DNA from: an uncultured Gammaproteobacteria bacterium
GTDB lineage: Bacteria; Patescibacteriota; Microgenomatia; Levybacterales; GWA1-39-11
Reading direction: 5' to 3'
Assembly (NCBI GenBank): GCA_964531275.1
Contig: CAZHDZ010000002.1
Location: forward strand, 58,180-122,179
DNA: 64,000 bases
The notes below the pieces were generated by a model, which was not told the DNA's origin, made no database searches, and was given only the letters and a program-made list of their open reading frames with translations. The stretch's first letter is position 1, and every line of letters begins with the position of its first letter. Below are positions 38,434 through 56,282 of this stretch, one piece after another. Made by a program: the position numbers and the translations under genes.

Positions 38434-38457
38434 CAAAAAAAGCCTCCTGGGGAGGCT
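38434..38457 (-). terminator. Intrinsic terminator after rplT (GCCUCC-CCAG-GAGGC + U7).
   Basis: Minus-strand reading AAAGCCTCCCCAGGAGGCTTTTTTTG. It lies between the rplT stop and the NUDIX gene start. Confidence 0.6.
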
Positions 38458-38482
38458 TTGGAAAAAGATGTTTGGCACTTTA

Positions 38483-39119: not shown

Positions 39120-39653
39120 TTATTTACTTTTGGTGACAAACATTACCATTTGTCTTCCTTCCATTTTTATATCTCGTTCTACTTTTGCTAATTCACCTAA
39201 TTTTTCAAGTACCATGTCCAACTTTTGGCGTCCTATCTCTTGATGGCCCATTTGTCGTCCTGTGAACCTGACTGAGAATTTAACCTTGTTGCCTTCAGTT
39301 AAAAATTCAGTAGCTTTTTTTAGCTTAATGTCTAAATCGTGCTCTCCGATAAAAGGTCCGAATCTGATTTGCTTTGTTTCAGATCCTTTTACTCCTTTTT
39401 TCTCTTCCTGCTTCTTTTTCTTTAGCTGATAAAGAAATTTAGAGTAATCTATAAGTTTTGCGACAGGTGGCTTAGCCAAAGGCGCTACTTCTACAAGATC
39501 GACTCCTAGTTCTTCAGCCTTTGCCAAAGCTTCCCTGATTGACAGAATGCCAATCATTTCGCCTTGATCATCAAGAACTCTCACTTCGGAAGCCCGAATT
39601 TGGTAATTCTTTCTGTAAAAGACTTTTGGTTTGAATTTATTGTTTGGTCTCAA
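39120..39653 (-). CDS. infC: Translation initiation factor IF-3.
   Basis: RPNNKF...YQIRASEVRVLDDQGEMIGILSIREALAKAEELGVDLVEV. The start is non-ATG (TTG at 39653; IF3 genes typically use rare starts). It overlaps the thrS 3' end by 17 nt. Confidence 0.85.
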   Translation of the reverse strand: MRPNNKFKPKVFYRKNYQIRASEVRVLDDQGEMIGILSIREALAKAEELGVDLVEVAPLAKPPVAKLIDYSKFLYQLKKKKQEEKKGVKGSETKQIRFGPFIGEHDLDIKLKKATEFLTEGNKVKFSVRFTGRQMGHQEIGRQKLDMVLEKLGELAKVERDIKMEGRQMVMFVTKSK

Positions 39654-40884
39654 TTTCGTTTTGAATTTGTTTGATAAATTCTTTTATCTCGAGTTGTCCG
39701 AGATCCTTTCCTCCTCTAACTCTTACAGAAATAAATTTAGATCCGTCTTTCGACTTTTCTTCTTCCTGACCGCCTATTATACACATGTAGGGTACTTTTT
39801 GTAAAGTAGCCTCACGAATCTTGTTACCAAGTGTGTTATTTGCGTTGTCTAATTCAACTCTTATTCCCAACGATTTTAGCTCGTCATATACACTTTTTGC
39901 GTAGTCTCCGAATTTATCAGATACGGGCAAAATAGACACTTGCACTGGCGCAAGCCATACTGGAAAAGCTCCTGCGTAATGCTCTATTAAAAAAGCCATT
40001 ACACGCTCAATTGCGCCTATGGAGGATCTATGAATGACAACCGGTCTTTCTTCTTCTCCTTGCTCATTTATGTATGTTAAATTGAAGCGTTGTGGCATCA
40101 CAAAATCGTATTGAACAGTAAATGCAGTATCTTCTTTACCATTGGTATTTTTCATTTGGACGTCTATTTTCGGTCCATAAAAAGCAGCTTCATTCTCTGC
40201 CTCAACAAATTTTGCCTTACGATTTATCAGCACTTCTCTTAATGTGCTCTCTGCTTCATCCCATGAGGAGTCATCTTTAAAGTACTTCTTTTCGTCCTTT
40301 CTGTCCCCCAAAGAGAGTCTGTAATGGTAATTTTCGCCCATTTTTAGCCCAAAGGTATCAGCTATAAATTCAATGAGTGAAAGAACTGAGTCAATTTCGC
40401 TTTTTGCGTCAGCTTTGGCGGTTATTATGTGTGCATCAGCTAGGCAAAATGAGCGCACTCTTTGAAGACCCATTAATTCTCCTGACTGCTCAAAACGGTA
40501 AAGCTTTGCAAGCTCTGCATATCTGACTGGTAATTCTCTGTAGCTATGTGGTCTTGAAAGGTACAATTCGAAGTGATGCGGGCATGTCATGGGTCTGAGC
40601 ATGAACTGCTCATCTTCAATTTCAATTGGAGCGTACATCGAGTCTTTGTAGTAAGGGTAATGCCCTGATTTTTCATAGAGCTCTATTTTTGCTATGTCAG
40701 GAGTGTAGACATGCAAATAATCTCGTCTAATTTCTTCATCTACAATAAATCGCTCTAATTCTCGTCTGATAACTGAGCCCTTAGGTGTAAAAAGAGGAAG
40801 CCCCTTTCCTACTGTGTCTGAAAATGTAAATAATTCCAACTCTTTTCCGAGGCGTTTGTGGTCATTGGGTGCTAATTCATCCAT
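39637..40884 (-). CDS. thrS: Threonine--tRNA ligase, truncated form: catalytic core plus anticodon-binding domain only (415 aa).
   Basis: MLRPMTCPHHFELY and a class II core. The N-terminal TGS and editing domains (~220 aa in canonical ThrRS) are absent. Directly upstream is only a 73-aa membrane ORF. Confidence 0.85.
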   Translation of the reverse strand: MDELAPNDHKRLGKELELFTFSDTVGKGLPLFTPKGSVIRRELERFIVDEEIRRDYLHVYTPDIAKIELYEKSGHYPYYKDSMYAPIEIEDEQFMLRPMTCPHHFELYLSRPHSYRELPVRYAELAKLYRFEQSGELMGLQRVRSFCLADAHIITAKADAKSEIDSVLSLIEFIADTFGLKMGENYHYRLSLGDRKDEKKYFKDDSSWDEAESTLREVLINRKAKFVEAENEAAFYGPKIDVQMKNTNGKEDTAFTVQYDFVMPQRFNLTYINEQGEEERPVVIHRSSIGAIERVMAFLIEHYAGAFPVWLAPVQVSILPVSDKFGDYAKSVYDELKSLGIRVELDNANNTLGNKIREATLQKVPYMCIIGGQEEEKSKDGSKFISVRVRGGKDLGQLEIKEFIKQIQNEIETKQ

Positions 40885-42130: not shown

Positions 42131-42300
42131 ATTGTGGACCCAAGAGGACTCGTTCTGCAACGCAGTGCGAAGCACAATCTGACCTAAAGTATCACGCTCA
42201 ACATGTGATTATTGTGGACGATACAGAATTCGAATCTGTGACCTTTACAATGTCAATGTAACGCTCTACGATTTGCAAAGCAAATTGAGTGCTCCAGCTG
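42131..42300 (-). repeat. Two degenerate partial copies of the tRNA-Val 3' region directly downstream of the intact gene.
   Basis: 42212-42300 retains the D-stem 3' side, an identical anticodon arm (TTACATTGACATTGTAA), and a T-arm and acceptor 3' side (ACAGATTCGAATTCTGT, ATCGTCCA) with compensatory changes, but has no matching acceptor 5' strand. 42135-42152 is an exact 18-nt copy of the T-arm/acceptor 3' end (CGAGTCCTCTTGGGTCCA). All three copies are followed by CAAxA. Confidence 0.6.
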
Positions 42301-42309
42301 AGCTTTTTG

Positions 42310-42384
42310 TGGACCCAAGAGGACTCGAACCTCTGACCTTTACAATGTCAATGTAACGCTCTAACCAAACTGAGCTATGAGTCC
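42310..42384 (-). tRNA. tRNA-Val (anticodon GAC).
   Basis: Minus-strand GGACTCATAGCTCAGTTTGGTTAGAGCGTTACATTGACATTGTAAAGGTCAGAGGTTCGAGTCCTCTTGGGTCCA folds as a cloverleaf with anticodon loop TTGACAT. CCA is not encoded. Confidence 0.8.
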
Positions 42385-42492: not shown

Positions 42493-43569
42493 TTAGGCTA
42501 GTAAAAATTTCTCACAGAAAACTGCTGCTTCTACCATTTCGGAGATTTTGGCATATTCTCTTTTTGTGTGAGCATTGTAATCTCCGGTTCCGACAACAAT
42601 AGCTTCAATTCCATTAGTATGAAATATATTTACGTCAGTTCCTCCCCCACTGTCTGAGATATTTGGGGTAATACCCATTTCGACAAAAGAGCTTTTCGCT
42701 CTTTCAATAACAGTATGAGTTTCTGAAAAGCGATATGGGTCAAATTCTCTTACAATCTCCAGATCTACTTTGGCTTCTGGGTATTCCTTCATGACACTAT
42801 CAAATACATCCTGGAAATGTCTTGCATGAAGTGCTAGTTTCTCTCGATCTCTACTTCTAATTTCGGCCTTGAAATGTGCTGATTCCGGTACCGCATTTCT
42901 CGCGCTCCCCCCTTCAATAAGCCCAACATTTGCGGTTGTTTCATGGTCAATTCGCCCTAGCTGTAACTGGCTAATAATTTTGGATGCAATTTGAATTGCT
43001 GAAATGCCCTTTTCAGGTTCTGCACCTGCATGCGCGCTTCTACCTGTAATGGTTGCGTCCACTCTGTTGTATCCTGGAGCTGAGATTGTGACGTTCGTTA
43101 CTCTTTCTTCACCGTCAAATGTAAGGCCTTGTCTCGAAGTAACCATGGAATAGTCAAGATTCTTTGCTCCTAGAAGTCCAATTTCTTCAGATCGGGTAAA
43201 TACTACCTCAAGTGAGACTTCTTTTTTTTCTTCTTTTAGAGACTCGATGGCTTCAAGGATTGCAGCCACTCCTGCTTTTGGGTCTGCACCCAATACTGTT
43301 GTGCCGTCAGTATTAATAATATCTCCATTTATTACTGGTTTTATGTTATTGCCCGGCTCAACAGTGTCGATGTGAGCATTCAGCATGAAGGGTGCACCCT
43401 TTCCTTGAAACTTTGCCACAATATTGCCAAAGGAATCGGTGTCGGTTTTGCCTCCCAGGCTTTCTAGTTTTTCAATTAAAAATTTAGCCATTGCATCCTC
43501 ATTGCCTGAAGTGCTGTCTATTGAGACCATTTCCAAAAAATTCTTTATCAGTCTTTCTTTCGTTATCAT
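42493..43569 (-). CDS. M20-family metallopeptidase (ArgE/DapE/PepT-like).
   Basis: NAHIDTVEPG, SEEIGLLGAKN, and a dimerisation-domain insertion. 358 aa. Confidence 0.7.
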   Translation of the reverse strand: MITKERLIKNFLEMVSIDSTSGNEDAMAKFLIEKLESLGGKTDTDSFGNIVAKFQGKGAPFMLNAHIDTVEPGNNIKPVINGDIINTDGTTVLGADPKAGVAAILEAIESLKEEKKEVSLEVVFTRSEEIGLLGAKNLDYSMVTSRQGLTFDGEERVTNVTISAPGYNRVDATITGRSAHAGAEPEKGISAIQIASKIISQLQLGRIDHETTANVGLIEGGSARNAVPESAHFKAEIRSRDREKLALHARHFQDVFDSVMKEYPEAKVDLEIVREFDPYRFSETHTVIERAKSSFVEMGITPNISDSGGGTDVNIFHTNGIEAIVVGTGDYNAHTKREYAKISEMVEAAVFCEKFLLA

Positions 43570-43577
43570 AAAATGTA

Positions 43578-44588
43578 TTATAGCGAATTTTGAATTATTG
43601 TACTAAGCTCGCCTTCAAAATGTCCTCCTCCAATATCTTTTCGTATAAGGTTAGTTGCGTGGAGTATTTCCGTAAAAGCAGCGCCATGTGGCACGTGAGA
43701 GTGTGCAAGCATACCGTCGGTTAATAAAACGCCGTCTACTAACAGAGGTTCACTATTGTGCGGATAGTAGTGCGGTGTTCTTAAGTTTTTTGACATAAGA
43801 GTAATAGCATTGCTTTCGGCAAGTGTAATAAGCGCGCCATGCCCTCTAAGATTGTTCCTTTCTTGTTCCATAAGGTTTATAAAGGTGTCTTCGCTTTGAG
43901 GAAGAACAAAAAGCGGATTGTTTTTGGGTTTAAAAAGTCCTGCTTCCGTTTCTCCGTATGTAAGACCGTATGCATCATAGTGTGCAAGTAGATAGGACGC
44001 TGCTCCATTTCGCGGATCTCCTGATCTGGCATGCTTACTGGACATATTAAGAAGGGTATTCATGCCTTCTGGGCTTATGCCTTGAGAAGCTTTATCTCCT
44101 TCACTTAGAATACGAAGCGCAGCATCAATACTGTCGTACTCGATTTCAGGTTTTGGAACGGATGGATGAAATCGGTCAAGATATCCATGCGCTACTCTTC
44201 CCAAGAATTGTGCGTTAGTCATGCCCTCTTGCACAGCTACTTCAAGCTCCTCACGAGACCTAGGGTCAATATTTGCAGCTGTATTTATGTGAATTGGGGC
44301 CATGGTTACCCATGACTCAGGTGGTTGATATCCTTTTTCTCTTATACCCTCAATAAGTTGGGCTGTTTCTGCTATGCCAGCTAGCCATCTCATTGGTACC
44401 TGACCATTTACAGAGTGGAGAGTATATATTGTTCTTTCTCCAAGACTATTTGCTTTGAGTGCCTCCCGCCATTTCTGGGCACTATCCCAGTCATACGCCA
44501 TAGTTGGCATATTTGCGTCATTAGGTTTTTCACCCAAGTAGTACTGTTCTAGGTCTAATCTGTATGTTGATAAGTGTTCCATAACCAC
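43578..44588 (-). CDS. Hypothetical protein (336 aa), co-operonic with the M20 peptidase.
   Basis: The ORF starts with GTG at 44588 right after a U7 tract; an in-frame ATG follows 2 codons later. No recognisable motifs. Confidence 0.6.
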   Translation of the reverse strand: MVMEHLSTYRLDLEQYYLGEKPNDANMPTMAYDWDSAQKWREALKANSLGERTIYTLHSVNGQVPMRWLAGIAETAQLIEGIREKGYQPPESWVTMAPIHINTAANIDPRSREELEVAVQEGMTNAQFLGRVAHGYLDRFHPSVPKPEIEYDSIDAALRILSEGDKASQGISPEGMNTLLNMSSKHARSGDPRNGAASYLLAHYDAYGLTYGETEAGLFKPKNNPLFVLPQSEDTFINLMEQERNNLRGHGALITLAESNAITLMSKNLRTPHYYPHNSEPLLVDGVLLTDGMLAHSHVPHGAAFTEILHATNLIRKDIGGGHFEGELSTIIQNSL

Positions 44589-44740
44589 AAAAAAACCCCC
44601 GCTTAGGTCCCGAAATCTGGGACGCGGAGGTTAAAGTTGACCAGCTCAAATCAACCCCCGCTAGGCGAAGGTGTAAGTAAAGTAGAATTGAGCTGTTTTT
44701 AACATTAGATCCATTATACAAAAGCGGATTGATAAATCAA
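44589..44740 (-). promoter_or_regulatory. Promoter (TTGATT-16-TATAAT) plus a ~130-nt structured leader with a terminator/antiterminator-like arrangement directly 5' of the 336-aa gene.
   Basis: Minus strand: -35 at 44735-44740, -10 TATAAT at 44713-44718. The leader holds GCGGGGGUU (decoy), then CCUCCGC-[GUCCC AGAUUUC GGGAC]-CUAA-GCGGGGG-U7, then GUG. Decoy and 5' arm are complementary. Confidence 0.5.
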
Positions 44741-45852
44741 CCTACTTTTTGGAAAATTAGTTCTTTGGATTTTTGGAGTATCTTTACTTTGTCCATATTA
44801 AGTTCTACGCCAAGACCATTTTTGCTAACAGGTACTCTTTGGCCTGCGACGTAAGGAGACATTCCGGTTGTATAATTCTGAACTTTAAGATCTGCGTCTA
44901 AATCCGAAAGAATTATATTAGGAGTAGAAACAGCAAAGTGAACGCCTGCCGCAATGCCAATTGGTCCTTCTAGCATGCATCCCACCATTACTTTCATATC
45001 TGCCTTCTCAGCCATTTCCGCAATGACTTTGGAGGGCCAGATCCCTCCTGCCTTTTGAAGCTTAATATTAATTCCATGCGCAGCCTTTTTCTTTGTTACC
45101 ACTTTTGCATCTTCTATGGTTGCGGCAGATTCATCCGCAAAAACCAGCATGCCCTCAACATTGTCTTTAACAAATTTCAACTTTGTAAGTTGACCTTTGG
45201 GACATGGTTCCTCAACCAAAATTACATTCCCAAGAATCTTATTAATACTATTTAAATCTTTAACCGCTTTTTTAGGGTCGGTAAATCCTTGATTAGCGTC
45301 AACTATATACTTCATTCTTGCTGGTGAGGCATTTTTTATTGCCCGTACTCTTTCAATATCCCCTTCTCCTTTAAGCTTTATTTTAAGAATCTTTAATTTC
45401 GGAAACTCATCAAAAATTTGACGAGTCGCTTGTGCTGTTTGGCTGAGTGTGTCATGAAGAAGAACCGTAACAGAATTGTCCACTAGGGAAGCCTTTGGTG
45501 CATACAGGGCATAGACCGGAATTTTGCGAATCTTTGCAATTAGATCATGATATGCAAAGTCGATTGCTGCTCGTAATGTTAAAGAGGTAATTTTGGTATC
45601 CAAAAAAGCATGAAGTTGTGCCAGTGAATCTGTCTCTGGATTAAGTGGTATCGTTCTTACTTTTGATACATCCTCAACTACATCATCCTGGGAGTCTCCA
45701 GTTATTGGTTTAAATGGGGCTGCTTCGCCTACTCCAGTAAACCCTTTGTGTGAAAGAGTAATAACGACTGTCTCTCGATAGTAGAAAGTGTGGAATGATA
45801 CGGAGAAAGGCTCCGGTAGTTTTGTGTTAAGAATTGATGCGCTTAGTTTCAT
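44737..45852 (-). CDS. Mandelate racemase / muconate-lactonizing enzyme family (enolase superfamily); likely dipeptide epimerase or OSBS-like.
   Basis: KxK (KIKLKG), metal ligands D (VDANQGF), E (LVEEP) and D (FADES), and the second catalytic K (KLQKAG). 371 aa. Confidence 0.75.
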   Translation of the reverse strand: MKLSASILNTKLPEPFSVSFHTFYYRETVVITLSHKGFTGVGEAAPFKPITGDSQDDVVEDVSKVRTIPLNPETDSLAQLHAFLDTKITSLTLRAAIDFAYHDLIAKIRKIPVYALYAPKASLVDNSVTVLLHDTLSQTAQATRQIFDEFPKLKILKIKLKGEGDIERVRAIKNASPARMKYIVDANQGFTDPKKAVKDLNSINKILGNVILVEEPCPKGQLTKLKFVKDNVEGMLVFADESAATIEDAKVVTKKKAAHGINIKLQKAGGIWPSKVIAEMAEKADMKVMVGCMLEGPIGIAAGVHFAVSTPNIILSDLDADLKVQNYTTGMSPYVAGQRVPVSKNGLGVELNMDKVKILQKSKELIFQKVG

Positions 45853-45855
45853 GCG

Positions 45856-47436
45856 TTATTGTAATTGCAATTCTACTAAATTCGGTCGAGCATTGTCGTA
45901 AATAAATTGTGGCGTTACTTCTGCAAATGTCTCATCTTTTCTTCCAGAAAAAACCGTAGCATATATGCCCGGAAGGCCAATAAGACTTGCCTCCTTAACT
46001 GTAGTATCCCGAATTTGATCAAGTCTTTTCTGATTAATTGCTCCTCCTGCAATTATCTCGATTGCTCCTGCAGGTCTGACCGCTCTATCTGCGTTATTTC
46101 TGCTGACAATAGGAATCATGCCGGCGCTATAATTCTCAGTGCGTTGGGCTCTGACCATTTGCGCCCATTTACTATTTCCTGCTTCATCTAGTGCCTGAGA
46201 AAGGCCATCCTTCATCCTTGTTAAATAGTCTGTTTGCATGAATCCCCCATAGCAAACAAGGCCTCTAGCTAAGGCAAGTTCTGTAAATGTTACAAAGAGA
46301 TTTGGATAAATATCCTCGTTGTTAAGAGCTTGTGCAATTGCCTCGGGCTCGAATGGTAGAACAGAATCTTTTCCTGCCAGAACGAGCCCTCCACTCCTTT
46401 CTTCTAGGTGAAGACTCTCTACTTCCAGATTTGTTCTCTTGCCCCAGAAAAATTCAGTACCTTGTCTTGCATTTTGGCTATTCCAACAGCCGGGTACGCC
46501 ATCAAGACTACGATACGTTGCATCTCTTAACTCAGGATTAAAGAGGGTATTAAAGATAAGAGAATCCGGATTTTCCAGATCCTGTTTGAGTAGATCTGTT
46601 GCTACTTTTTCGATTTGCAAAAAGGACATCTCAGGCATATGTTCTGCAACATCCGGTGTAAAGAGACGCTTCCACAAATCACTATTAATAAGACTTGCTT
46701 GGTCAGAGAAGCTGTCTTGTCCTAGTACGTCATATCTCATATAAACATCATTAAGAATCTCTCTAATTACTGTCATCTCCTGCTTGCTTATTACGCCTTG
46801 TCCGAAAAGTCCCGTGAGTTTTCCATCAGTTTGTTGAATCATTTCGCTCGTCATTGGTGGCAATGCAGCAACGGGTGCGTCTCCGTATTTTCGTACGGGG
46901 AGAATATTAATTTTTACCGGGACACTTTTCATTTCACCAGTGCCAGTGTCTTGGTGTCTTTCTCGTGCAAGTTGAATTCCTAAAGGATATGTTAAATTGT
47001 TTGCAGGGAGGGCACCTCCTGCAAGTGCCACAAGAACCCCCTCAGGTTTTTTCCCAAATTGTGCCAGTACGCTTGATTGTGCTGTTATGGGGAAAAAATC
47101 ACCACCCATGTGATAAGGAGAATTAACTACGGGAGTCTCTGCTAACTGACCTGCTGCTTTAATAGCCATTTCCGTCCCGTACAGACGGCGCGTCTCATCA
47201 ACTACTGCCTCAACTGCTTCTTCTAGAGGGTGAATAGTTGGAGTACTATCACCTTCACTAAATGTTGAGGCATATTCGCCTAGCCCTTTGCCTCCTTGTT
47301 CAGACAGAACACTTGTAAGCACGGGTCTTTCTGCCTTTACGGCGTCGTACATAGCCTCTATTTTTGCTTCTTGCGGTGTAAATCTTAAATTATCCATAGT
47401 AGCGCAAATTATATGCAACATCTGCCCTTCGCGCAA
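45856..47436 (-). CDS. Hypothetical protein (526 aa).
   Basis: Long ORF tightly packed, with a 3-nt gap to the MR/MLE gene. No motif I can name. Confidence 0.6.
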   Translation of the reverse strand: MREGQMLHIICATMDNLRFTPQEAKIEAMYDAVKAERPVLTSVLSEQGGKGLGEYASTFSEGDSTPTIHPLEEAVEAVVDETRRLYGTEMAIKAAGQLAETPVVNSPYHMGGDFFPITAQSSVLAQFGKKPEGVLVALAGGALPANNLTYPLGIQLARERHQDTGTGEMKSVPVKINILPVRKYGDAPVAALPPMTSEMIQQTDGKLTGLFGQGVISKQEMTVIREILNDVYMRYDVLGQDSFSDQASLINSDLWKRLFTPDVAEHMPEMSFLQIEKVATDLLKQDLENPDSLIFNTLFNPELRDATYRSLDGVPGCWNSQNARQGTEFFWGKRTNLEVESLHLEERSGGLVLAGKDSVLPFEPEAIAQALNNEDIYPNLFVTFTELALARGLVCYGGFMQTDYLTRMKDGLSQALDEAGNSKWAQMVRAQRTENYSAGMIPIVSRNNADRAVRPAGAIEIIAGGAINQKRLDQIRDTTVKEASLIGLPGIYATVFSGRKDETFAEVTPQFIYDNARPNLVELQLQ

Positions 47437-49077
47437 TTAATTTAGTCTTGCATTGTGAAGTGCAGTTATGTCAAAAAGTACTCCTCTTAAGTTTTCCCTT
47501 TGTAGTGCTGATTCCTGGCCAGTTGCTTGCTGAAGTACGACTTCTGTCTGGGCTAACATTTCTATGGCATCTTTAAGGTCAGTTCCCTGCGGAACATCAT
47601 ACTCGGTAGCGTAATACACGGGTTTATGTCCGATGTCTGTTATGAGAGATATTCCAATTTGTTCCTGAGGATCTATTAATCTTTGTTCTTCCCAGGCCTC
47701 AACATCATCAGCTACTTGCTGTAAATTTATTCTTTCATCTTGATCTTCACTTTTTGCTATCTTATTTTTTACAAAGTCAACAAGGCCATCTGAATTAGCT
47801 TCACGTCTCAGGAAGTCTCTCACTGCACAAAAATGCCTTTCAGACCTTCCACCAATAGTTATATTTACATCAACTGCTTCGCCCTCGCTCCCAAAATACC
47901 CATCAGAAGGAATTGCTAATTGATCTCGAAAAACCAGGGGGTGTATTGCTGCATATTCGGCTGCATTTTCTGCGCCATTGTCACCACCGTGATTATTGCC
48001 TAATTCCTGAAGCGTAGCGATGGTGTCCATAACTGCAGGATCAGTGCTGCTTTTCAAAAGATGGGCTAGATATTCACGAGCAACTCTAGTTCCCAATTGG
48101 TGTTCATCCCAAGGAACATCTTCCCTGTATTCAACTGCACTACTAATGTCAGGATAGGTACCGTCGATGAATCCTTTCATTGCTTCCATATTCTGTGCAG
48201 TTCTTCCCGGAATTTTTTCAGGATCCATTCGTTGGCTTACAGTATTTATTGCAATTGCAGCTTGATGTGCGAAAAAGAATTCTGCTGTTGGAAGTTGTTG
48301 TAGGATTCCTGCTTTCCTTCTAACCTCTTCCTGTTCATCTCCTGTAAGAACTGCTTCAACACCTATACTGTCAATTTCCTGAGCAATTGAAGCTCTTTGA
48401 CCTTGGGAAAGGAAATCAATATTCAAATACTCTTTCACAGTATCAATACCCTTTTTGTTTGCCGCTTGCCTCATTTTTGTGGATTCTCTTTTGGAATAAA
48501 TTTGTGATAGTCCGTCAAGAATTCGCATAGCTGGAATGCCATACGCCGGAAGTCTTGCGGGTGTAAAGTCATCATCGGAACCACCAAACCCAGTTCGTAT
48601 TGCAACCCTGGTATCAGGGTTTTTAGCCATCATAATGGCAGCTTCTACAACATGAAGAGATTGATTCTGTTGAACCATTGATATGTAGTTGTCTGATCCA
48701 ACTATAACTTTTGTAATTGAAGGAGCAAGTTCTGATATATTGGTAAAAGTATTTCGTGCTTCATCGCTAACAAATTCACCAGTATCAGTAAATAATTCTG
48801 CGCACTGTCTTCTAACAACTTCTGCGCTTTGTGCTATGAATGATCGGCGATATTTCTTCTCAAGTGGCGAAAATGGTGCATTTCCATCAACAAAAACTTT
48901 GATTCGATTGTCTGCATTATCTTCGAAAGGCTTAATAAGTTTTACTTGAAGCGCTTCAAGTTGCTTGTTGGCAACGCCAAAGCTTGCCTCTGCAGGCTGA
49001 ATGCTTGAAAATTCAAATTGTTGTGTTGGTATTTCAGCTGTCATATTTTTCCATTGGTTTGTCTTCTCAAACCACAA
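47437..49077 (-). CDS. Hypothetical protein (546 aa).
   Basis: The long ORF abuts the 526-aa gene (stop and start adjacent). The TTG start at 49077 sits 5 nt after a GGGAGG inside the upstream hairpin; an alternative ATG lies at 49044. Confidence 0.6.
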   Translation of the reverse strand: MWFEKTNQWKNMTAEIPTQQFEFSSIQPAEASFGVANKQLEALQVKLIKPFEDNADNRIKVFVDGNAPFSPLEKKYRRSFIAQSAEVVRRQCAELFTDTGEFVSDEARNTFTNISELAPSITKVIVGSDNYISMVQQNQSLHVVEAAIMMAKNPDTRVAIRTGFGGSDDDFTPARLPAYGIPAMRILDGLSQIYSKRESTKMRQAANKKGIDTVKEYLNIDFLSQGQRASIAQEIDSIGVEAVLTGDEQEEVRRKAGILQQLPTAEFFFAHQAAIAINTVSQRMDPEKIPGRTAQNMEAMKGFIDGTYPDISSAVEYREDVPWDEHQLGTRVAREYLAHLLKSSTDPAVMDTIATLQELGNNHGGDNGAENAAEYAAIHPLVFRDQLAIPSDGYFGSEGEAVDVNITIGGRSERHFCAVRDFLRREANSDGLVDFVKNKIAKSEDQDERINLQQVADDVEAWEEQRLIDPQEQIGISLITDIGHKPVYYATEYDVPQGTDLKDAIEMLAQTEVVLQQATGQESALQRENLRGVLFDITALHNARLN

Positions 49078-49212
49078 AAAAACCTCCCTTTTGGGGAGGT
49101 CGTTAATACACGAAAAACCTCCCCTAGCGCTGGCTAAGAAGGAGGTCTAGTAAGATTACTGAATTTCGTGTCATGTTATGTACCATTATATCAATTCATT
49201 TGTCTTTGACAA
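49074..49212 (-). promoter_or_regulatory. Promoter (TTGTCA-16-TATAAT) plus a leader with two tandem CCUCC/GGAGG hairpins and a U7 tract 5' of the 546-aa gene.
   Basis: Minus strand: -35 at 49207-49212, -10 at 49185-49190. The leader reads GACCUCCUUCUUAGCCAGCGCUAGGGGAGGUUUUU ... GACCUCCCCAAAAGGGAGGUUUUUUUGUGG. The first hairpin's 5' arm (GACCUCCUU) mimics the 16S 3' end. Confidence 0.5.
49076..49099 (-). terminator. Intrinsic-terminator-like hairpin CCUCCC-CAAA-AGGGAGG + U7. It could terminate the 49221 gene and also sequesters the SD of the 546-aa gene.
   Basis: Minus strand CCTCCCCAAAAGGGAGGTTTTTTTGTGG. Confidence 0.55.
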
Positions 49213-49220: not shown

Positions 49221-49625
49221 TTATTCATTTTCCGCACCTTCTCCTGCCTCAGATTCCCCAAATTCGCTACCTTCGATCTCGAAAGATGCACCGTTTTCTA
49301 TTCCTGCTCCTTCTACTTCATTGGTGCCTATTGCTGCTAATTCCATAGTCACTTCTGCAACGCCCACAGAAAATTCATGACCATGAGACATATCAATTCC
49401 AAACCCGCCTATTTCCATTGGAACAATAGATATATCGAAAAGACTATTTGAAGCACTTACTTCCTGGGTGGCAAACCCTCCCGCTAATTCGACATTAAAG
49501 TCATCAACAGCCGGATTGAGCTCTATCTCTCGCGGTTCAAATTTCCTTTTTCGCTCCAAAGAACGTTCTATCCCGGACATCACTGTACGTACTTGATCTA
49601 ATTGTTGTTGTATATCCATTTCCAT
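49221..49625 (-). CDS. Hypothetical acidic protein (134 aa).
   Basis: Monocistronic: the leader hairpin/U7 element is upstream (49643-49666) and a promoter for the next gene is immediately downstream. The C-terminal third is Glu/Gly-rich. Confidence 0.5.
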   Translation of the reverse strand: MEMDIQQQLDQVRTVMSGIERSLERKRKFEPREIELNPAVDDFNVELAGGFATQEVSASNSLFDISIVPMEIGGFGIDMSHGHEFSVGVAEVTMELAAIGTNEVEGAGIENGASFEIEGSEFGESEAGEGAENE

Positions 49626-49642
49626 AGTTTGTTAAAAGGCAC

Positions 49643-49700
49643 AAAAAAACCTCCCAAAGTGGGAGGTCAAATTATTATTTTCTCCCACGAAAAGCTACGC
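49643..49700 (-). promoter_or_regulatory. CCUCCCA-CUU-UGGGAGG + U7 hairpin with an upstream decoy (CGUGGGAG), followed by a 14-codon uORF (GUG start) overlapping the start of the acidic-protein gene.
   Basis: Minus strand UUUUCGUGGGAGAAAAUAAUAAUUUGACCUCCCACUUUGGGAGGUUUUUUUGUGCCUUUUAACAAACUAUGGAAAUGG. The decoy GUGGGAG is exactly complementary to the 5' arm CUCCCAC. Confidence 0.45.
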
Positions 49701-49755
49701 CTTGATAAGGTGAAGTCTTCGTGTGTAAGAAAATTGCATGTCCATACGTAATATA

Positions 49756-50151
49756 TTACACTTTTGAGGCTGCAATGTCAATTTCTGCGGTTGCTGCTAT
49801 TTCAACCAAGGCGTTTAGCGGAAGTGACACAACGCCAACTGTGTATCGAGCTGGTTTCGAATCGCCGAGATATTTTGCATACACTTCGTTAAATTTTGCG
49901 TAATTGCTCAAGTCTGATAAAAAACATTGTGTTTGGACAACATCAGAAAGAGAAGATCCCGCCTCCTCAAGAACCGCTTTAAGGTTTGAAATTACTTGCT
50001 CTGTCTGACCTTCAATATCAGCTGCCTCTATCGTGCCACTAATCGGATTTATTCCAATTTGCCCCGAGCAAAAGACAAATCCACCGCTTACGATTGCTTG
50101 CGAATAGGGCCCTACAACTGTCGGTGCCTTAGAGGTAAAGACTGTTTTCAT
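49756..50151 (-). CDS. ridA: RidA (YjgF/TdcF) family reactive-enamine/imine deaminase.
   Basis: 131 aa. The full-length sequence is characteristic of the YjgF fold. It sits immediately downstream of threonine dehydratase (1-nt junction). Confidence 0.85.
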   Translation of the reverse strand: MKTVFTSKAPTVVGPYSQAIVSGGFVFCSGQIGINPISGTIEAADIEGQTEQVISNLKAVLEEAGSSLSDVVQTQCFLSDLSNYAKFNEVYAKYLGDSKPARYTVGVVSLPLNALVEIAATAEIDIAASKV

Positions 50152-51399
50152 TTATATGATGTAATTATACAAAAGATCGCTGTGCTTAATCGGCGTATAG
50201 GAAATACCTATGCTGTCTAGCCTTTTGATTAAAGGCTCGTAGTCATTTTTTGAAGCAAGCTCTATTCCGACCAGTGCAGGGCCGGTCTCTCGGGAAGTTT
50301 TTTTGACATATTCAAATCTGACTATGTCATCCGTAGGTCCAAGAGCTTTGTCTACAAATGCTCGCAGTTGTCCTGGCTTTTGGGCAAATTTAAGAAGAAA
50401 ATAGTGCTTTCTTCCTTGATGTATCAAGCTTCTTTCCATAATCTCCGGGTATCTTAGGATGTCATTATTTCCTCCGCTTAGTACGCAAACAACAGTTTTG
50501 CCTTTTAACTTTTTTTTGAGGCTATATAGGGCTGCGATTGAGAGTGCTCCCGCAGGCTCAGCTACGATCCCCTCATTTTGATAAAGGTCAATCATGGTTG
50601 TACATATTTGCCCCTCAGAAATAAGTACTACTTCTTTCACAAGCCTTTTAATTATTGAAAAGGATATATCCCCGGGCTTTTTAACAGCAGCACCATCTAC
50701 AAATGTATCTATGTGATCAAGCTCTACTACCTCACCCTTTTTAAGGGACTCATACATGCTGGGGGCACCTTCCGGTTCTGCGCCAATGAATACAGTATGA
50801 GGTGAGACATGGGAAAAATATGAACTAACTCCAGACAAGAATCCCCCTCCACCAATTGGAGCAATGAAATAATCGATACTGCTTCCCAATTCTTCATAAA
50901 TTTCTTTTCCTACAGTTCCTTGGCCAGCAATTACATCAATGTCATTGAAAGGATGAACAAAAATAGCGTTTTTCTTTTCGCACACCTCTATGGCTTTTTT
51001 GTAAGCTTCGTCATACGTATTGCCAAACAACTCAATAGTTATATGTGAGTTGCCAAACTCTCTGACTCTTTTTATTTTTTGTAACGGGGTCGTTGTGGGC
51101 ATAAAAATTGTTGTTGAAATTCCTAGTTCTTTTGCAGCAAATGCAACTCCTTGTGCATGATTGCCTGCGCTTGCTGCGACTACTCCTTGCTGTCTCTCCT
51201 TTGGGGTTAGCATGGACATTTTGTTGTAGGCACCTCGTATTTTGTATGATCTAACGATCTGCTGGTCTTCTCTCTTAATATAAACTTGAGCCTCAAATTC
51301 TTGAGATAGACGCTCTGAAAGCATAAGCTCGGTGCGTTTTACGGTACCGCTTAGTCTTTTGGCTGCTTCGTTAATATGATTAAGAGTTATTACGTTCAT
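50152..51399 (-). CDS. ilvA: Threonine dehydratase (PLP-dependent; catalytic domain plus C-terminal regulatory ACT-like domain).
   Basis: PLP-lysine motif VRSYKIRGAYNKM, ASAGNHAQGVA, and a G-rich PLP loop GGGGF. 415 aa. Confidence 0.85.
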   Translation of the reverse strand: MNVITLNHINEAAKRLSGTVKRTELMLSERLSQEFEAQVYIKREDQQIVRSYKIRGAYNKMSMLTPKERQQGVVAASAGNHAQGVAFAAKELGISTTIFMPTTTPLQKIKRVREFGNSHITIELFGNTYDEAYKKAIEVCEKKNAIFVHPFNDIDVIAGQGTVGKEIYEELGSSIDYFIAPIGGGGFLSGVSSYFSHVSPHTVFIGAEPEGAPSMYESLKKGEVVELDHIDTFVDGAAVKKPGDISFSIIKRLVKEVVLISEGQICTTMIDLYQNEGIVAEPAGALSIAALYSLKKKLKGKTVVCVLSGGNNDILRYPEIMERSLIHQGRKHYFLLKFAQKPGQLRAFVDKALGPTDDIVRFEYVKKTSRETGPALVGIELASKNDYEPLIKRLDSIGISYTPIKHSDLLYNYII

Positions 51400-51586
51400 T
51401 CCATAAGCAAAGCTTGTGTCTTTTCAAGCCAATCCCTGTCTTTCAAAGCCATAAAAAAACCTCCCATTTTTGGGAGGTCGTGCGTCTTAAAAGATCAACA
51501 CCCTCCCTAGGAAGGAATAATAATGTCGATAATTTGAAGACTTCGGTGCATAAAAGTAATGTACTACTGCTAGGGAAAAAAGTCAA
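51400..51586 (-). promoter_or_regulatory. ilvA leader: candidate promoter (TTGACT-17-TACATT), three-segment GGGAGGG / CCUCCCA / GGGAGG-U7 switch, and an 18-codon uORF whose stop overlaps the ilvA AUG (AUGA).
   Basis: Minus strand CCUUCCUAGGGAGGGUG...CGACCUCCCAAAAAUGGGAGGUUUUUUUAUGGCUUUGAAAGAC...CUUAUGGAAUGAACG. The hairpin's 3' arm GGGAGG is the SD of the uORF at 7-nt spacing. Confidence 0.45.
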
Positions 51587-55574: not shown

Positions 55575-56159
55575 TTAAATAGTTAGCTCCAGGCTGTGCA
55601 TTCCAAGACGTGCATATTCAGCCTCAATTTTATTCATAAAGAATCTAATTCTAGGAGCCCATGTAGGGCTTTCAGAATAAATTGGCGCTATAGACTCAAC
55701 GGTAGTTGCACCACGTGATGCGTACTTTGTTTTAAGGGCACCGAGAACAGTAGTAATACCATCCTCTACAGATTCAAAGTAAATATGACCCCCGCCCCAC
55801 CCATAGGAGTTATGTGATCCAGGCATTTGATGAAGCCCAAAAGATGACTCAAGTCCAGCAATAGCAGGAAGAAGTCTCCAGTCCATTTCATTCTTATCCG
55901 CTTCCTCAATATAGTAAGCAGCATATGGAGCCAAGGGTGAATTATACCGTTCTAATACATTTTGCAGGGCTACTACCCTCATGTCTTTAGACTGAATAGC
56001 CAAGACCTGTGTATTAGGTACAGTTGTTGCTGCAGATACAGTTGCAGCGTTAACCGCAAATATAGCTGTCATTATGAACAGTGTTATGATTTTTTTCATA
56101 TTTGGGAAAACCTTTGGGGGTTGTCCTAAATATGAGTCTTGGTGAAGATCCAAGACCAA
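55575..56159 (-). CDS. Secreted SLT-like (lytic-transglycosylase-like) protein.
   Basis: Signal peptide. Motif LLPAIAGLESSFG resembles the AIAxQESxF catalytic-Glu motif of family-1 lytic transglycosylases. It is a paralog of the next gene. Confidence 0.4.
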   Translation of the reverse strand: MVLDLHQDSYLGQPPKVFPNMKKIITLFIMTAIFAVNAATVSAATTVPNTQVLAIQSKDMRVVALQNVLERYNSPLAPYAAYYIEEADKNEMDWRLLPAIAGLESSFGLHQMPGSHNSYGWGGGHIYFESVEDGITTVLGALKTKYASRGATTVESIAPIYSESPTWAPRIRFFMNKIEAEYARLGMHSLELTI

Positions 56160-56282
56160 AGAGGATTACCAAAAAAAAATCCTAAAGTAGTTTTGGGCTA
56201 CCTTAGGATCTAAAGTGTATTATAGACTATTACTATGAGTCTGTCAAGGGGTAAACTATAGGTTACTTATTGCAGTTTGAGG

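What the first reader, a model, noticed from the sequence alone, without database searches (positions are those of the whole stretch)
43578..49077. Five-gene cluster: two large uncharacterised proteins (546 and 526 aa), an MR/MLE enolase-superfamily enzyme, a 336-aa unknown and an M20 peptidase, under hairpin-gated leaders
The genes are tightly packed on one strand (junction gaps 0-8 nt, except for a regulated 148-nt gap). The only recognisable members are an enolase-superfamily enzyme with intact KxK/D/E/D/K catalytic residues (dipeptide-epimerase/OSBS-like) and an M20 exopeptidase. That pairing is characteristic of peptide or murein-peptide catabolism. The 546-, 526- and 336-aa proteins have no motif I can assign; 336-aa has His-rich patches such as HSHVPHG. 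The cluster has its own strong promoter (TTGTCA-16-TATAAT) and two internal CCUCC/GGGAGG leader switches. That suggests conditional expression of an uncharacterised peptide-processing or salvage pathway.
Basis: partly seen in the sequence, partly recalled or inferred. Interest (0 to 1): 0.6.

Follow-up and report, generated by a model that had tools for sequence, protein, structure and literature searches.

The report
Starvation-switched amino-acid supply operon with novel enzymes
In a tiny-genome (candidate phyla radiation) bacterium, a five-gene cluster holding three protein families that no library recognises is switched on by classic leader-peptide attenuators when branched-chain or aromatic amino acids run short, so it most likely supplies those amino acids, probably by a join, flip and cut route.

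Summary
The cluster is real, lies on the minus strand, and is conserved in Microgenomates/Daviesbacteria-type bacteria. The genes are:
- A, 546 aa
- B, 526 aa
- C, an MR/MLE dipeptide-epimerase type
- D, 336 aa
- E, a PepT-like M20 peptidase, which lies just outside the stated coordinates

A, B and D match no Pfam, NCBIfam or PDB sequence and have only 4-9 relatives among 5.8 billion protein clusters.

New findings:
1. D is a paralog of the central and C-terminal part of A.
2. B's model resembles BshC, a putative amino-acid ligase. In other genomes B is replaced by a GCS2-type ligase, and the epimerase then switches to an NSAR/OSBS-like racemase.
3. The "hairpin-gated leaders" are ribosome-mediated attenuators: promoter, leaderless leader peptide, antiterminator/terminator, and a U-tract abutting the start codon.
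4. Leader codon runs track the gene: Ile for ilvA and citramalate synthase, Leu/Ile/Val for A genes, and Phe/Tyr/Trp for D genes in six independent loci.

Best model: a starvation-induced supply of hydrophobic L-amino acids by ligate, epimerise, hydrolyse. A and D are side-chain-class-specific components whose chemistry is unresolved. Murein L-Ala-D/L-Glu catabolism is not supported.

The parts
49185..49212 (-). Promoter-like site TTGTCA-16-TATAAT (with upstream TG) for the A-B-C leader. The -10 box ends 10 nt before the leader-peptide ATG.
   Evidence: A -10-like hexamer sits 6-12 nt upstream of the leader ATG in all 15 leaders examined.
49124..49174 (-). Leader peptide ORF of the A-B-C attenuator, MTRNSVILLDLLLSQR* (5 Leu and 1 Ile in a run of 7 residues). 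The Leu codons overlie segment 1 (GACCUCC). The stop codon UAG abuts segment 2 (GGGGAGGU, 49124-49117).
   Evidence: The segment 2:3 duplex is -13.9 kcal/mol against -6.7±2.2 for shuffles.
49076..49101 (-). Terminator-like hairpin GACCUCCC-CAAAA-GGGAGGU plus U7, abutting the A start codon. Its 3' arm GGGAGG sits at Shine-Dalgarno distance from the start.
   Evidence: leader z = -4.2.
47437..49077 (-). Gene A, 546 aa (535 aa from ATG 49044). It belongs to a new family with motifs G-x-GGSD, AAxYAAxH and ITIGGxxERxF. Residues about 237-485 are homologous to D. The predicted fold is alpha/beta, with weak similarity to cyclodipeptide synthases and TyrRS.
45856..47436 (-). Gene B, 526 aa (513 aa in databases). 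It belongs to a new family whose model resembles BshC, a putative amino-acid ligase. B homologs are linked to type-1 (dipeptide) epimerases in 3 of 5 loci that carry B.
44737..45852 (-). Gene C, 371 aa. Enolase-superfamily MR/MLE enzyme of the dipeptide-epimerase type, with KxK, D, E, D, K and DxD. It lacks the Glu-binding Arg of YcjG.
44713..44740 (-). Promoter-like site TTGATT-16-TATAAT for the D-E leader. It overlaps the 3' end of C.
44661..44705 (-). Leader peptide ORF of the D-E attenuator, MLKTAQFYFTYTFA* (the run F Y F T Y T F).
   Evidence: D-family leaders in five other independent loci carry FFFFFF, FFFF, FFYFFFF, FYFYF and FFYFWF.
44589..44632 (-). Terminator-like hairpin AACCUCCGC...GCGGGGGU plus U7, abutting the D start (GTG 44588). 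Segment 2 (AGCGGGGGU) upstream is complementary to its 5' arm (-17.6 kcal/mol, z = -5.8).
43578..44588 (-). Gene D, 336 aa. Paralog of the central and C-terminal part of A. Invariant D150, Y197, H201, P228 and E231 in a 34-sequence family alignment. Elsewhere its relatives are usually paired with a HisC-family aminotransferase.
42493..43569 (-). Gene E, 358 aa. M20 metallopeptidase, PepT-like. It lies outside the coordinates given in the finding.
51453..51586 (-). Same type of attenuator in front of ilvA-ridA. It has promoter TTGACT-17-TACATT, leader peptide MHRSLQIIDIIIPS* (51507-51551) and terminator 51479-51458 plus U7. It serves as an internal positive control for the codon logic.
   Evidence: IlvA is bona fide (599 bits against a cut-off of 421).
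49643..49781 (-). Attenuator-like leader in front of the 134-aa acidic ORF. Leader peptide MDMQFSYTRRLHLIKA* (49695-49745), with no clear codon run. Terminator 49668-49648 plus U7.

Best explanation
The cluster consists of two adjacent attenuator-controlled transcription units, A-B-C and D-E, in a candidate-phyla-radiation (Microgenomates-type) bacterium.

How each unit is switched. Each unit is preceded by:
- a promoter
- a leaderless leader-peptide ORF
- a G-rich segment 2 at the leader's stop codon
- a terminator hairpin (segments 3 and 4) whose U-tract abuts the structural start codon

When the ribosome stalls on the leader's regulatory codons, segment 2 pairs with segment 3. The terminator cannot form, and segment 4 (GGGAGG) is freed to serve as the ribosome-binding site. 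Those codons are Leu/Ile/Val for A-B-C and Phe/Tyr for D-E. The genes are therefore induced by shortage of charged branched-chain or aromatic tRNAs. The sequence features are shown; the mechanism is inferred.

What the enzymes most likely do (inferred). They supply free hydrophobic L-amino acids from otherwise unusable forms, most plausibly D-isomers:
1. B, a BshC-like ligase, joins an amino acid to the substrate's amino group to give a dipeptide.
2. C epimerises the C-terminal residue of that dipeptide.
3. E, an L-specific M20 dipeptidase, hydrolyses the L,L-dipeptide and so pulls the flux.

In sister genomes the same logic uses a GCS2 (gamma-glutamyl-type) ligase with an NSAR/OSBS-like racemase.

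A and D are paralogous members of a new enzyme family. They appear to be specific for side-chain class: A for branched-chain and D for aromatic amino acids. Their chemical step is unresolved.
For: Conservation of the cluster:
- A plus ligase plus MR/MLE plus M20 recurs in L002-4, L005, L009, L011, L013 and L015; L008 is cut at a contig end and shows only a fragment in the A position. D sits between the racemase and M20 in L008, L011 and L013.
- The trio M20-B-MR/MLE also occurs without A (L020).

Co-variation of ligase and racemase:
- All three B-linked epimerases are 53-57% identical to one another.
- The type-1 epimerases aligned (window C and L005's) carry the YcjG-like DxD motif.
- All six GCS2-linked racemases are only 24-27% identical to C. 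The five that were aligned carry NSAR/OSBS-type motifs (GGMLETGIGRA, PADMSP).

B and the ligase role: Foldseek against the PDB gives BshC (4wbd) as the only notable hit (E = 4e-3, probability 0.97, 497 columns). BshC is the putative Cys ligase of bacillithiol synthesis (PMC5790435).

A/D paralogy: hhalign probability 92%, E = 6.7e-7, with shared N, D, Y..H and E motifs.

Attenuators:
- A hairpin plus U-tract abutting the start of an ORF of at least 60 aa was found only at A and D genes in the ten related loci scanned. The window gave one further hit, on the opposite strand at a 60-aa ORF.
- All 15 leaders have a -10 box 6-12 nt before a 13-33-codon ORF that ends 19-41 nt before the terminator.
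- Segment 2:3 pairing beats shuffled controls (z of -2 or lower) in 13 of 15 leaders, and the arms co-vary between loci.
- Leaders fold with z-scores of -2.9 to -5.3.

Codon logic:
- Ile runs precede bona fide IlvA and a citramalate synthase.
- Mixed Leu/Ile/Val runs precede A genes.
- Phe/Tyr/Trp runs precede D genes in six independent loci.

[quoted passage not shown] 2006, as cited in PMC12006748).
Against: - No enzyme activity was tested, and the direction (D to L) is inferred only from the starvation logic and from precedents.
- B's similarity to BshC is structural only. The TM-score is 0.27, the model pLDDT is 71, and there is no sequence-level link. BshC's own reaction has never been reconstituted.
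- The model gives A and D no defined step, although A is the most conserved member.
- A and D also pair with aminotransferases in loci that lack the ligase, racemase and peptidase: L001, L010, L017, L018, L019 and L021. This fits a 2-oxo-acid route at least as well as a D-amino-acid route.
- The M20 genes of different loci share only 22-28% identity with E.
- An internal attenuator separates D-E from A-B-C, so M20 and the ligase/epimerase are not strictly co-regulated.
- B homologs also occur alone (L006, L007).
Confidence: 0.45

Rival explanations
1. Precursor-based biosynthesis. A and D would be non-orthologous enzymes that make the 2-oxo acids of branched-chain (A) and aromatic (D) amino acids. 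D, for example, could be a functional analogue of prephenate dehydratase or of an aromatic 2-hydroxy-acid oxidising enzyme. An aminotransferase would then convert those 2-oxo acids to the L-amino acids. On this view the ligase/epimerase/peptidase trio is a separate salvage module that merely shares the regulon.
For: - D-like genes are translationally coupled to HisC-family aminotransferases under Phe/Tyr/Trp attenuators in L010, L019 and L021, and in L018 (leader not seen there). One AT-D fusion exists.
- A pairs with class-III aminotransferase-like genes in L001 and L017.
- The cluster sits beside ilvA-ridA in the window and beside citramalate synthase in L002-4.
- The trio occurs without A in L020.
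Against: - No shikimate or ilvBCD/leu genes were seen in any of the loci, apart from a KARI gene in L006.
- A and D show no recognisable cofactor motif or similarity to any dehydratase or dehydrogenase.
- In the window and in L008, L011 and L013, D is followed by an M20 peptidase rather than an aminotransferase.
- A is always the first gene of the ligase-racemase operon.
Confidence: 0.22
2. Amino-acid activation by synthetase-like enzymes. A, and perhaps D, would be class-I aminoacyl-tRNA-synthetase or cyclodipeptide-synthase-like enzymes. They would bind or activate Leu/Ile/Val or Phe/Tyr as an adenylate, or use aminoacyl-tRNA. They would hand the activated amino acid to B, a BshC-like transferase that may need an externally activated amino acid, to build a small peptide that C and E then process.
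For: - The top Foldseek PDB hits for the high-confidence A model (pLDDT 87) are consistently cyclodipeptide synthases and TyrRS/TrpRS.
- BshC is thought to need an activated Cys supplied by another factor (PMC5790435).
- A and B abut with a 0-nt gap.
- A YbaK-like aminoacyl-tRNA editing gene follows the M20 gene in L015.
- Aminoacyl-tRNA synthetase genes are frequent neighbours.
Against: - The fold hits are not significant: E = 0.16-2, and TM-score normalised to the target is at most 0.46.
- No HIGH or KMSKS motif is present.
- D lacks A's N-terminal G-x-GGSD region.
- An enzyme that consumes charged tRNA would be illogical under an attenuator that is induced when charged tRNA is scarce.
- A is retained where B is replaced by a self-sufficient GCS2 ligase.
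Confidence: 0.12
3. Murein-peptide catabolism. C would epimerise L-Ala-D-Glu released from peptidoglycan, and E would cleave L-Ala-L-Glu, as YcjG and PepD do in E. coli.
For: - The best NCBIfam hit of C is an L-Ala-D/L-Glu epimerase model, though far below its cut-off (158 against 500).
- The pairing of an MR/MLE enzyme with an M20 peptidase matches YcjG/PepD. That pairing is known to me from the literature, and ycjG sits next to mpaA in E. coli.
- A D-Ala-D-Ala carboxypeptidase gene lies near the cluster in L001-4 and L009.
Against: - C has Phe where YcjG has Arg24, the residue that binds the Glu side chain, and its 20s loop is aromatic.
- In most relatives the racemase is NSAR-like, not a dipeptide epimerase.
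- Catabolism would not need ATP-dependent ligases.
- The leader peptides sense Leu/Ile/Val and Phe/Tyr, not Ala or Glu.
- No MpaA, LdcA or NlpC/P60 partner is present.
Confidence: 0.05
4. L-to-D direction or secondary metabolism. The genes would make a D-amino-acid-containing small peptide, or free D-amino acids, for the envelope or for interaction with a host.
For: - Two or three ligase-like proteins plus an epimerase resemble a small non-ribosomal assembly line.
- Candidate-phyla-radiation bacteria need D-amino acids for peptidoglycan.
- The epimerase reaction is reversible.
Against: - Induction when the L-amino acid is scarce makes a pathway that consumes that amino acid unlikely.
- Known M20 enzymes are typically L-specific (stated from my own knowledge).
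- No export, tailoring or carrier genes are conserved nearby.
- Peptidoglycan D-residues are Ala and Glu, not Leu or Phe.
Confidence: 0.08

Closest known systems
NSAR pathway for irreversible D- to L-amino-acid conversion (Geobacillus kaustophilus: succinyltransferase, N-succinylamino-acid racemase, M20 desuccinylase; Sakai et al. 2006, cited in PMC12006748)
   Same: - An enolase-superfamily racemase acts on an N-blocked amino acid and is followed by an M20 hydrolase.
- Hydrophobic side chains are preferred.
- The genes are organised as an operon.
- The GCS2-linked relatives carry an NSAR/OSBS-like racemase.
   Different: - No GNAT or acyl-CoA transferase is present. Blocking would be done by an ATP-dependent ligase (BshC-like B, or a GCS2 type).
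- The window version uses a dipeptide epimerase with a DxD motif.
- Two extra novel proteins (A and D) are present.
- Control is by amino-acid attenuators.
E. coli YcjG/MpaA/PepD and B. subtilis YkfABCD murein-peptide recycling
   Same: A dipeptide epimerase of the MR/MLE subgroup is combined with an M20 dipeptidase. The catalytic KxK/D/E/D/K and DxD residues are conserved.
   Different: - The Glu-binding Arg24 is absent.
- There are no murein amidase or endopeptidase partners.
- Ligases are present.
- The inducing signal is branched-chain or aromatic amino-acid limitation.
BshC (bacillithiol cysteine-adding enzyme; PDB 4wbd)
   Same: It is the only notable structural match of B. The lengths are similar (540 against 513-526 aa), the match spans 497 columns, and the Foldseek probability is 0.97.
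   Different: - There is no sequence or Pfam-level similarity.
- The TM-score is low.
- bshA and bshB are absent from the neighbourhood.
- B is linked to an epimerase and a peptidase instead.
Classical ribosome-mediated attenuators of enterobacterial ilv, leu, pheA and pheST operons
   Same: - A leader peptide carries runs of the regulatory codons.
- The stop codon lies next to segment 2.
- Alternative 2:3 and 3:4 pairings are possible.
- There is a U-tract terminator.
- The ilvA and 134-aa ORF leaders give weak, sub-threshold Rfam Phe_leader hits.
   Different: - The leader ORFs are apparently leaderless, with the -10 box 6-12 nt upstream.
- The U-tract abuts the structural start codon, and the terminator's 3' arm doubles as the Shine-Dalgarno sequence. 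Transcription and translation are therefore gated by one hairpin.
- They occur in candidate-phyla-radiation bacteria. The full-text searches found no report of such attenuators there.
Cyclodipeptide synthases and class Ic aminoacyl-tRNA synthetases (TyrRS, TrpRS)
   Same: They are the best, though weak, structural neighbours of A. Like them, A and D have a predicted alpha/beta fold, with conserved residues placed just after the predicted beta-strands.
   Different: - E-values are 0.16 or higher.
- There is no HIGH or KMSKS motif and no CDPS catalytic Ser pattern that could be verified.
- A is about twice the size.
- Membership is not established.

Membership tests
Enolase superfamily, MR/MLE subgroup, dipeptide epimerase (gene C) | N-terminal capping domain plus C-terminal barrel domain. 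| tested here: met
   PF02746 (E = 1.2e-8) and PF13378 (E = 3.3e-34).
Enolase superfamily, MR/MLE subgroup, dipeptide epimerase (gene C) | KxK general base, three metal ligands (D, E, D) and a second Lys. | tested here: met
   K157, K159, D185, E214, D240 and K264 are invariant in the alignment with YcjG and six homologs.
Enolase superfamily, MR/MLE subgroup, dipeptide epimerase (gene C) | DxD motif that binds the dipeptide's free alpha-ammonium group. | tested here: met
   SDLDA aligns with YcjG ADLDG. The NSAR-like relatives have PADMSP at this position instead. The role of the motif is stated from my own knowledge of the family.
L-Ala-D/L-Glu epimerase (YcjG/YkfB equivalog) | An Arg in the 20s loop (YcjG R24) that binds the Glu side chain, and a score above the equivalog cut-off. 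| tested here: not met
   F23 aligns with R24. NF041118 scores 158 against a cut-off of 500, and NF011708 scores 78 against 343.
M20 metallopeptidase, PepT-like (gene E) | M20 catalytic domain, dimerisation domain, and a family score above the cut-off. | tested here: met
   PF01546 and PF07687. TIGR01883 scores 290.7 against 274.25.
BshC (gene B) | Sequence membership in the BshC family. | tested here: not met
   No Pfam or NCBIfam hit for any of the 6 family members, even at E = 10. The family profile does not hit the 4wbd sequence.
BshC (gene B) | The same overall fold. | tested here: inconclusive
Class I aminoacyl-tRNA synthetase / cyclodipeptide synthase fold (genes A and D) | Rossmann-type catalytic fold similar to TyrRS or CDPS. 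| tested here: inconclusive
   CDPS and TyrRS/TrpRS dominate the top Foldseek hits, but E is 0.16 or higher and the TM-score normalised to the target is at most 0.46.
Class I aminoacyl-tRNA synthetase / cyclodipeptide synthase fold (genes A and D) | HIGH and KMSKS signature motifs (for synthetases). | tested here: not met
   Neither motif appears among the conserved columns of A1 or A4. The conserved motifs are GxGGSD, AHQAAIAIN/PIHINTAAN, Y..H and GG..ER.F/PQSE..F.
Ribosome-mediated transcription attenuator (leaders) | A short leader ORF with a run of codons for the regulating amino acid. | tested here: met
   14 of 15 leaders carry such a run. Ile runs precede IlvA and citramalate synthase, which act as positive controls.
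Ribosome-mediated transcription attenuator (leaders) | An intrinsic terminator (GC-rich stem plus U-tract) downstream of the leader ORF. | tested here: met
   Stem free energies of -9 to -22 kcal/mol and U5-8 tracts.
Ribosome-mediated transcription attenuator (leaders) | A mutually exclusive antiterminator (2:3) whose segment 2 is covered by a ribosome sitting at the stop codon. | tested here: met
   The 2:3 duplex has z of -2 or lower against shuffles in 13 of 15 leaders. Segment 2 starts between -30 and +6 nt from the end of the stop codon, and the arms co-vary between loci.
Ribosome-mediated transcription attenuator (leaders) | Readthrough increases when the amino acid is limiting. | not testable with these tools
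   This needs reporter assays or in vitro transcription-translation assays.
NSAR-type D-to-L amino-acid conversion operon | An N-acylating enzyme, a racemase for N-blocked amino acids and an L-specific M20 hydrolase in one operon. | tested here: inconclusive
   The racemase/epimerase and M20 genes are present. The acylating step would be done by a non-homologous ligase (B or GCS2), and no GNAT is present. The activities were not tested.

The most novel reading that the evidence does not exclude
A and D found a previously unrecognised enzyme superfamily. It has an alpha/beta fold, possibly related to aminoacyl-tRNA synthetases or cyclodipeptide synthases, and a Tyr/His/Asp/Glu active site. Its members carry out the side-chain-specific step of a new ATP-driven route. 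By that route, ultra-small candidate-phyla-radiation bacteria, usually regarded as amino-acid auxotrophs, would make or stereo-invert branched-chain and aromatic amino acids. The route would be controlled by a compact attenuator in which one hairpin gates both transcription and ribosome binding.
Probability: 0.3. Interest if true: 0.85.

Novelty: new variant of a known kind. Interest (0 to 1): 0.68.

Why it matters
Candidate-phyla-radiation bacteria are thought to depend on hosts for amino acids, and very little is known about how they regulate genes. This locus contributes in three ways.

1. A clear regulatory read-out. Codon-specific attenuators act on a set of otherwise anonymous genes and point to the amino-acid class whose shortage should switch each gene on. 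I found no report of such attenuators in this group.

2. Three protein families with no annotation. A and D are paralogs. B is a distant structural relative of BshC, an enzyme whose own reaction is still unsolved.

3. A natural experiment. Ligase and racemase types swap together between genomes, which points to a ligate, epimerise, hydrolyse route for hydrophobic amino acids that avoids acyl-CoA chemistry.

If confirmed, the route would change how amino-acid metabolism is reconstructed for these organisms. It could also offer new biocatalysts for amino-acid stereo-inversion.

Tried and rejected
- Pfam, NCBIfam and PDB sequence searches of A, B and D, as single sequences and as family profiles: nothing credible.
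- D profile against the PDB: only chance-level hits, including an SOD-like mS42 segment at E = 0.3.
- B against the GCS2 or aminotransferase-like proteins that occupy its position elsewhere: no similarity, so this is non-orthologous displacement rather than divergence.
- A against B by hhalign: unrelated.
- The 308-aa gene of L005 and the 326-aa gene of L009 are not D homologs.
- Rfam: only tRNAs at gathering thresholds, and only sub-threshold Phe_leader hits at relaxed thresholds.
- I first considered the hairpins to be ordinary terminators of upstream genes, or a split ribosome-binding site. I rejected this because the structure is specific to A and D genes in the related loci, always follows a promoter plus a codon-biased leader ORF, and has a co-varying antiterminator.
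- I considered a D-glutamate-producing cycle (L-Ala-L-Glu ligase, epimerase, peptidase). I dropped it because C lacks the Glu-binding Arg and the leaders sense hydrophobic amino acids.
- Literature searches found no description of this cluster or of attenuators in candidate-phyla-radiation bacteria.
- Cluster-member look-up gave no organism names.

Full report
**1. The observation**

Five ORFs lie head to tail on the minus strand:

| Gene | Coordinates | Length |
|---|---|---|
| A | 47437-49077 | 546 aa |
| B | 45856-47436 | 526 aa |
| C | 44737-45852 | 371 aa |
| D | 43578-44588 | 336 aa |
| E | 42493-43569 | 358 aa |

The gaps are 0, 3, 148 and 8 nt. The stated range omits E.

C carries the MR_MLE_N and MR_MLE_C domains. 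E carries Peptidase_M20 and M20_dimer and passes the NCBIfam PepT-like model. A, B and D match nothing in Pfam, NCBIfam or PDB sequences, whether searched singly or as family profiles.

These families are very rare. Among 5.8 billion protein clusters I found 9, 6 and 4 proteins including the query itself. An exhaustive profile search for D found 44 representatives. The few named relatives come from Candidatus Daviesbacteria and the Microgenomates group. One B homolog comes from a Desulfobacteraceae assembly.

**2. Synteny**

Gene neighbourhoods show a conserved module.

- *A-like, GCS2-type ligase, MR/MLE, M20.* This order occurs in L002-4, L009 (with an extra class-I amidotransferase or C26-like gene), L015, L011 and L013. 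L008 has the same order but is cut at a contig end, with only an unidentified 98-aa fragment in the A position.
- *D position.* L008, L011 and L013 also have D between the racemase and M20, as in the window.
- *L005.* This locus has A, B and MR/MLE, with an M20 on the opposite strand. It has the same tig-DUF5660 ... thrS-infC surroundings as the window.
- *L020.* This locus has aminotransferase, M20, B and MR/MLE without A.

The would-refute condition "no synteny conservation" is therefore not met.

**3. Ligase and racemase swap together**

Aligning the MR/MLE proteins with E. coli YcjG shows two types.

- *Type 1.* The window's C and the epimerases of L005 and L020 are 53-57% identical to one another. 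All three sit next to B. C and the L005 enzyme, which were aligned with YcjG, carry a YcjG-like DxD motif (SDLDA).
- *Type 2.* The six racemases next to GCS2-like ligases are only 24-27% identical to C. The five that were aligned carry motifs I recognise as NSAR/OSBS-like (GGMLETGIGRA, PADMSP).

B shows no similarity to the GCS2 proteins. Two non-homologous ligases are each tied to their own racemase type and followed by an M20 hydrolase. This argues that the ligase product is the racemase substrate.

C keeps KxK, D, E, D and K. It has Phe where YcjG has Arg24, the residue that binds the Glu side chain (stated from my own knowledge of the family), within an aromatic loop FHTFYY. C is therefore a dipeptide epimerase but not an L-Ala-D/L-Glu epimerase.

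**4. Structures**

*Protein A.* The model is confident (pLDDT 87, pTM 0.89). Foldseek against the PDB gave no significant hit. The top of the list is nevertheless consistently cyclodipeptide synthases and TyrRS/TrpRS (E = 0.16-2, TM-score up to 0.46 of the target). I treat this as a lead, not a classification.

*Protein B.* The model is of medium quality (pLDDT 71). Its only notable hit is BshC (4wbd), with E = 4e-3, probability 0.97 and 497 columns but a low TM-score. BshC is the putative cysteine-adding enzyme of bacillithiol synthesis. Its reaction has never been reconstituted, and it may need an activated amino acid or a partner protein (PMC5790435).

**5. A and D are paralogs**

Profile-profile comparison of the D family (34 sequences) with the A family gives probability 92% and E = 6.7e-7 over 146 columns. 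D residues 75-234 align with A residues 237-405.

| D motif | A motif |
|---|---|
| MAPIHINTAAN | FFFAHQAAIAIN |
| D150 | D309 |
| AASYLLAHYDAYG | AAEYAAIHPLVF |
| FVLPQSEDTF | ITIGGRSERHF |

By eye the C-terminal P-x-YY....[DE].P motif matches as well. D150, Y197, H201, P228 and E231 are invariant in the D-family alignment. In the A model the corresponding motifs fall just after predicted beta-strands, which is typical of an active site in an alpha/beta fold. A has an extra N-terminal region with an invariant G-x-GGSD loop.

**6. Partners of A and D elsewhere**

D-like genes are most often coupled to a HisC-family aminotransferase. This is seen in L010, L018, L019 and L021, and there is one apparent fusion. 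A-like genes pair with class-III aminotransferase-type genes in L001 and L017. The L017 protein also hits archaeal Leu/Met-racemase models, but below their cut-offs.

A and D therefore accompany whichever enzyme releases the L-amino acid. That enzyme is an aminotransferase in some genomes and the ligase/racemase/peptidase set in others.

**7. The leaders are attenuators**

A scan of the window and ten related loci looked for a GC-rich hairpin plus U-tract abutting the start of an ORF of at least 60 aa. In the related loci it found this only in front of A-family and D-family genes. The window gave one further hit, on the opposite strand at a 60-aa ORF.

Each of 15 leaders has the same four features:
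- a -10-like box, often with a TTGACA -35 box, 6-12 nt before an ATG, so the leader ORF is apparently leaderless
- a 13-33-codon ORF that ends 19-41 nt before the terminator's 5' arm
- a G-rich segment at or over the stop codon that is complementary to the terminator's 5' arm, with z of -2 or lower against shuffles in 13 of 15 and arms that co-vary between loci
- a terminator of -9 to -22 kcal/mol followed by U5-8

The terminator's 3' arm lies 5-8 nt before the structural start and is GGGAGG in the window. It would act as the Shine-Dalgarno sequence only in the antiterminated state.

**8. Codon logic**

| Gene downstream | Leader peptide(s) |
|---|---|
| ilvA (window) | MHRSLQIIDIIIPS |
| Citramalate synthase (L002) | ..QIIREIII.. 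|
| A (window) | MTRNSVILLDLLLSQR |
| A (other loci) | ALIIVLF; ILLSLLLVLVL; VSVVIIIT; QIIMVLLMV |
| D (window) | MLKTAQFYFTYTFA |
| D or aminotransferase plus D-like (other loci) | KEFFFFFFL; NLFFFFI; TFFYFFFFK; LLFYFYFM; TFFYFWFT |

The ilvA and citramalate synthase leaders precede genes that are bona fide or near the family cut-off. They act as positive controls for the codon logic.

Ribosome stalling on these runs covers segment 1 and leaves segment 2 free to form the antiterminator. A ribosome that reaches the stop codon covers segment 2, so the terminator forms. This is the classical model, and here it is inferred from sequence only.

The A-B-C unit should therefore be induced by branched-chain amino-acid limitation, and D-E by Phe/Tyr limitation. 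I found no paper describing such attenuators in candidate-phyla-radiation bacteria. Rfam gives only sub-threshold Phe_leader hits.

**9. Interpretation**

Induction when an L-amino acid is scarce argues that the products supply that amino acid.

The known operons that pair an enolase-superfamily racemase with an M20 hydrolase run from D to L. These are the NSAR pathway (Sakai et al. 2006, cited in PMC12006748) and, from my own knowledge, E. coli YcjG/PepD.

I therefore favour an ATP-driven ligate, epimerise, hydrolyse route. It would turn D-forms, or otherwise blocked forms, of hydrophobic amino acids into free L-amino acids. B or GCS2 would replace the acyl-CoA transferase of the NSAR pathway.

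A and D would be the components specific for side-chain class. Their step is unknown.

The main rival is that A and D make 2-oxo acids for the aminotransferases. That would be precursor-based biosynthesis, with the trio as a separate module. A synthetase-like activating role for A is a further possibility. Murein-peptide catabolism and an L-to-D biosynthetic role fit the data poorly.

**10. Verdict**

The murein link is not.
- The locus combines three unannotated protein families, a co-varying ligase/racemase pair and a compact codon-specific attenuator.
- I rate it a new variant of known kinds of system. There is a real chance that A and D represent a new enzyme class.

Noticed in passing
window 77-24781 (+): A single ORF of 8234 aa (24.7 kb) fills more than a third of the window. 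It has many spurious antisense ORFs. It was not analysed.
   Followed up: no
window 50152-51586 (-): ilvA (bona fide threonine ammonia-lyase) and ridA sit behind an attenuator whose leader peptide, MHRSLQIIDIIIPS, has five Ile codons. After the terminator, an 18-codon uORF (MALKDRDWLEKTQALLME*) overlaps the ilvA start by ATGA.
   Followed up: partly
window 49221-49781 (-): A 134-aa, very acidic ORF ending ...EAGEGAENE has no Pfam hit and no homolog in the related loci. It has its own attenuator-like leader (MDMQFSYTRRLHLIKA*) and a 14-codon uORF after the terminator that overlaps the 134-aa ORF's ATG. Its function is unknown.
   Followed up: partly
window 42221-42384 (-): tRNA-Val(GAC) is followed by a degenerate partial copy. 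The copy scores 31 bits in Rfam and is not called by ARAGORN. It repeats the anticodon-arm sequence GAGCGTTACATTGACATTGTAAAGGTCA.
   Followed up: no
window 39120-40884 (-): The ThrRS ORF is only 415 aa, and L005 encodes a 588-aa ThrRS with a tRNA_SAD domain in the same neighbourhood. The window ORF overlaps the infC ORF by 17 nt. pheS and pheT follow further downstream, so a canonical PheRS is present.
   Followed up: partly
L002 11089-12803 (also L003, L004): A citramalate synthase gene (TIGR00977, 441 bits against a cut-off of 450) lies directly after the cluster's M20 gene. It has an Ile-run leader (MSKFRGQIIREIIIASPAGGFLR*) and a terminator. This implies pyruvate-route isoleucine synthesis in Daviesbacteria-type genomes.
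   Followed up: partly
L015 14053-14583: A YbaK/EbsC-like aminoacyl-tRNA editing-domain gene immediately follows the cluster's M20 gene in one relative.
   Followed up: no
L020 7150-8956: A PLP-dependent decarboxylase (Pyridoxal_deC) lies downstream of the M20-B-MR/MLE trio. It has a Phe-rich leader (MINKPKVFLFKFFINAN*) followed by a terminator-like hairpin.
   Followed up: no
L006 7568-9497 and L007 792-3201: B homologs also occur outside the cluster. One lies directly after a NikR-like (RHH_1/NikR_C) regulator. Another is in a Desulfobacteraceae contig next to an MFS transporter and an unknown 267-aa gene.
   Followed up: no
window 56171-56209 (-) and 38435-38459 (-): Two more hairpin plus U-tract elements occur on the minus strand. 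One lies just upstream of the 194-aa ORF at 55575-56159. I did not check whether they are plain terminators or further leaders.
   Followed up: no
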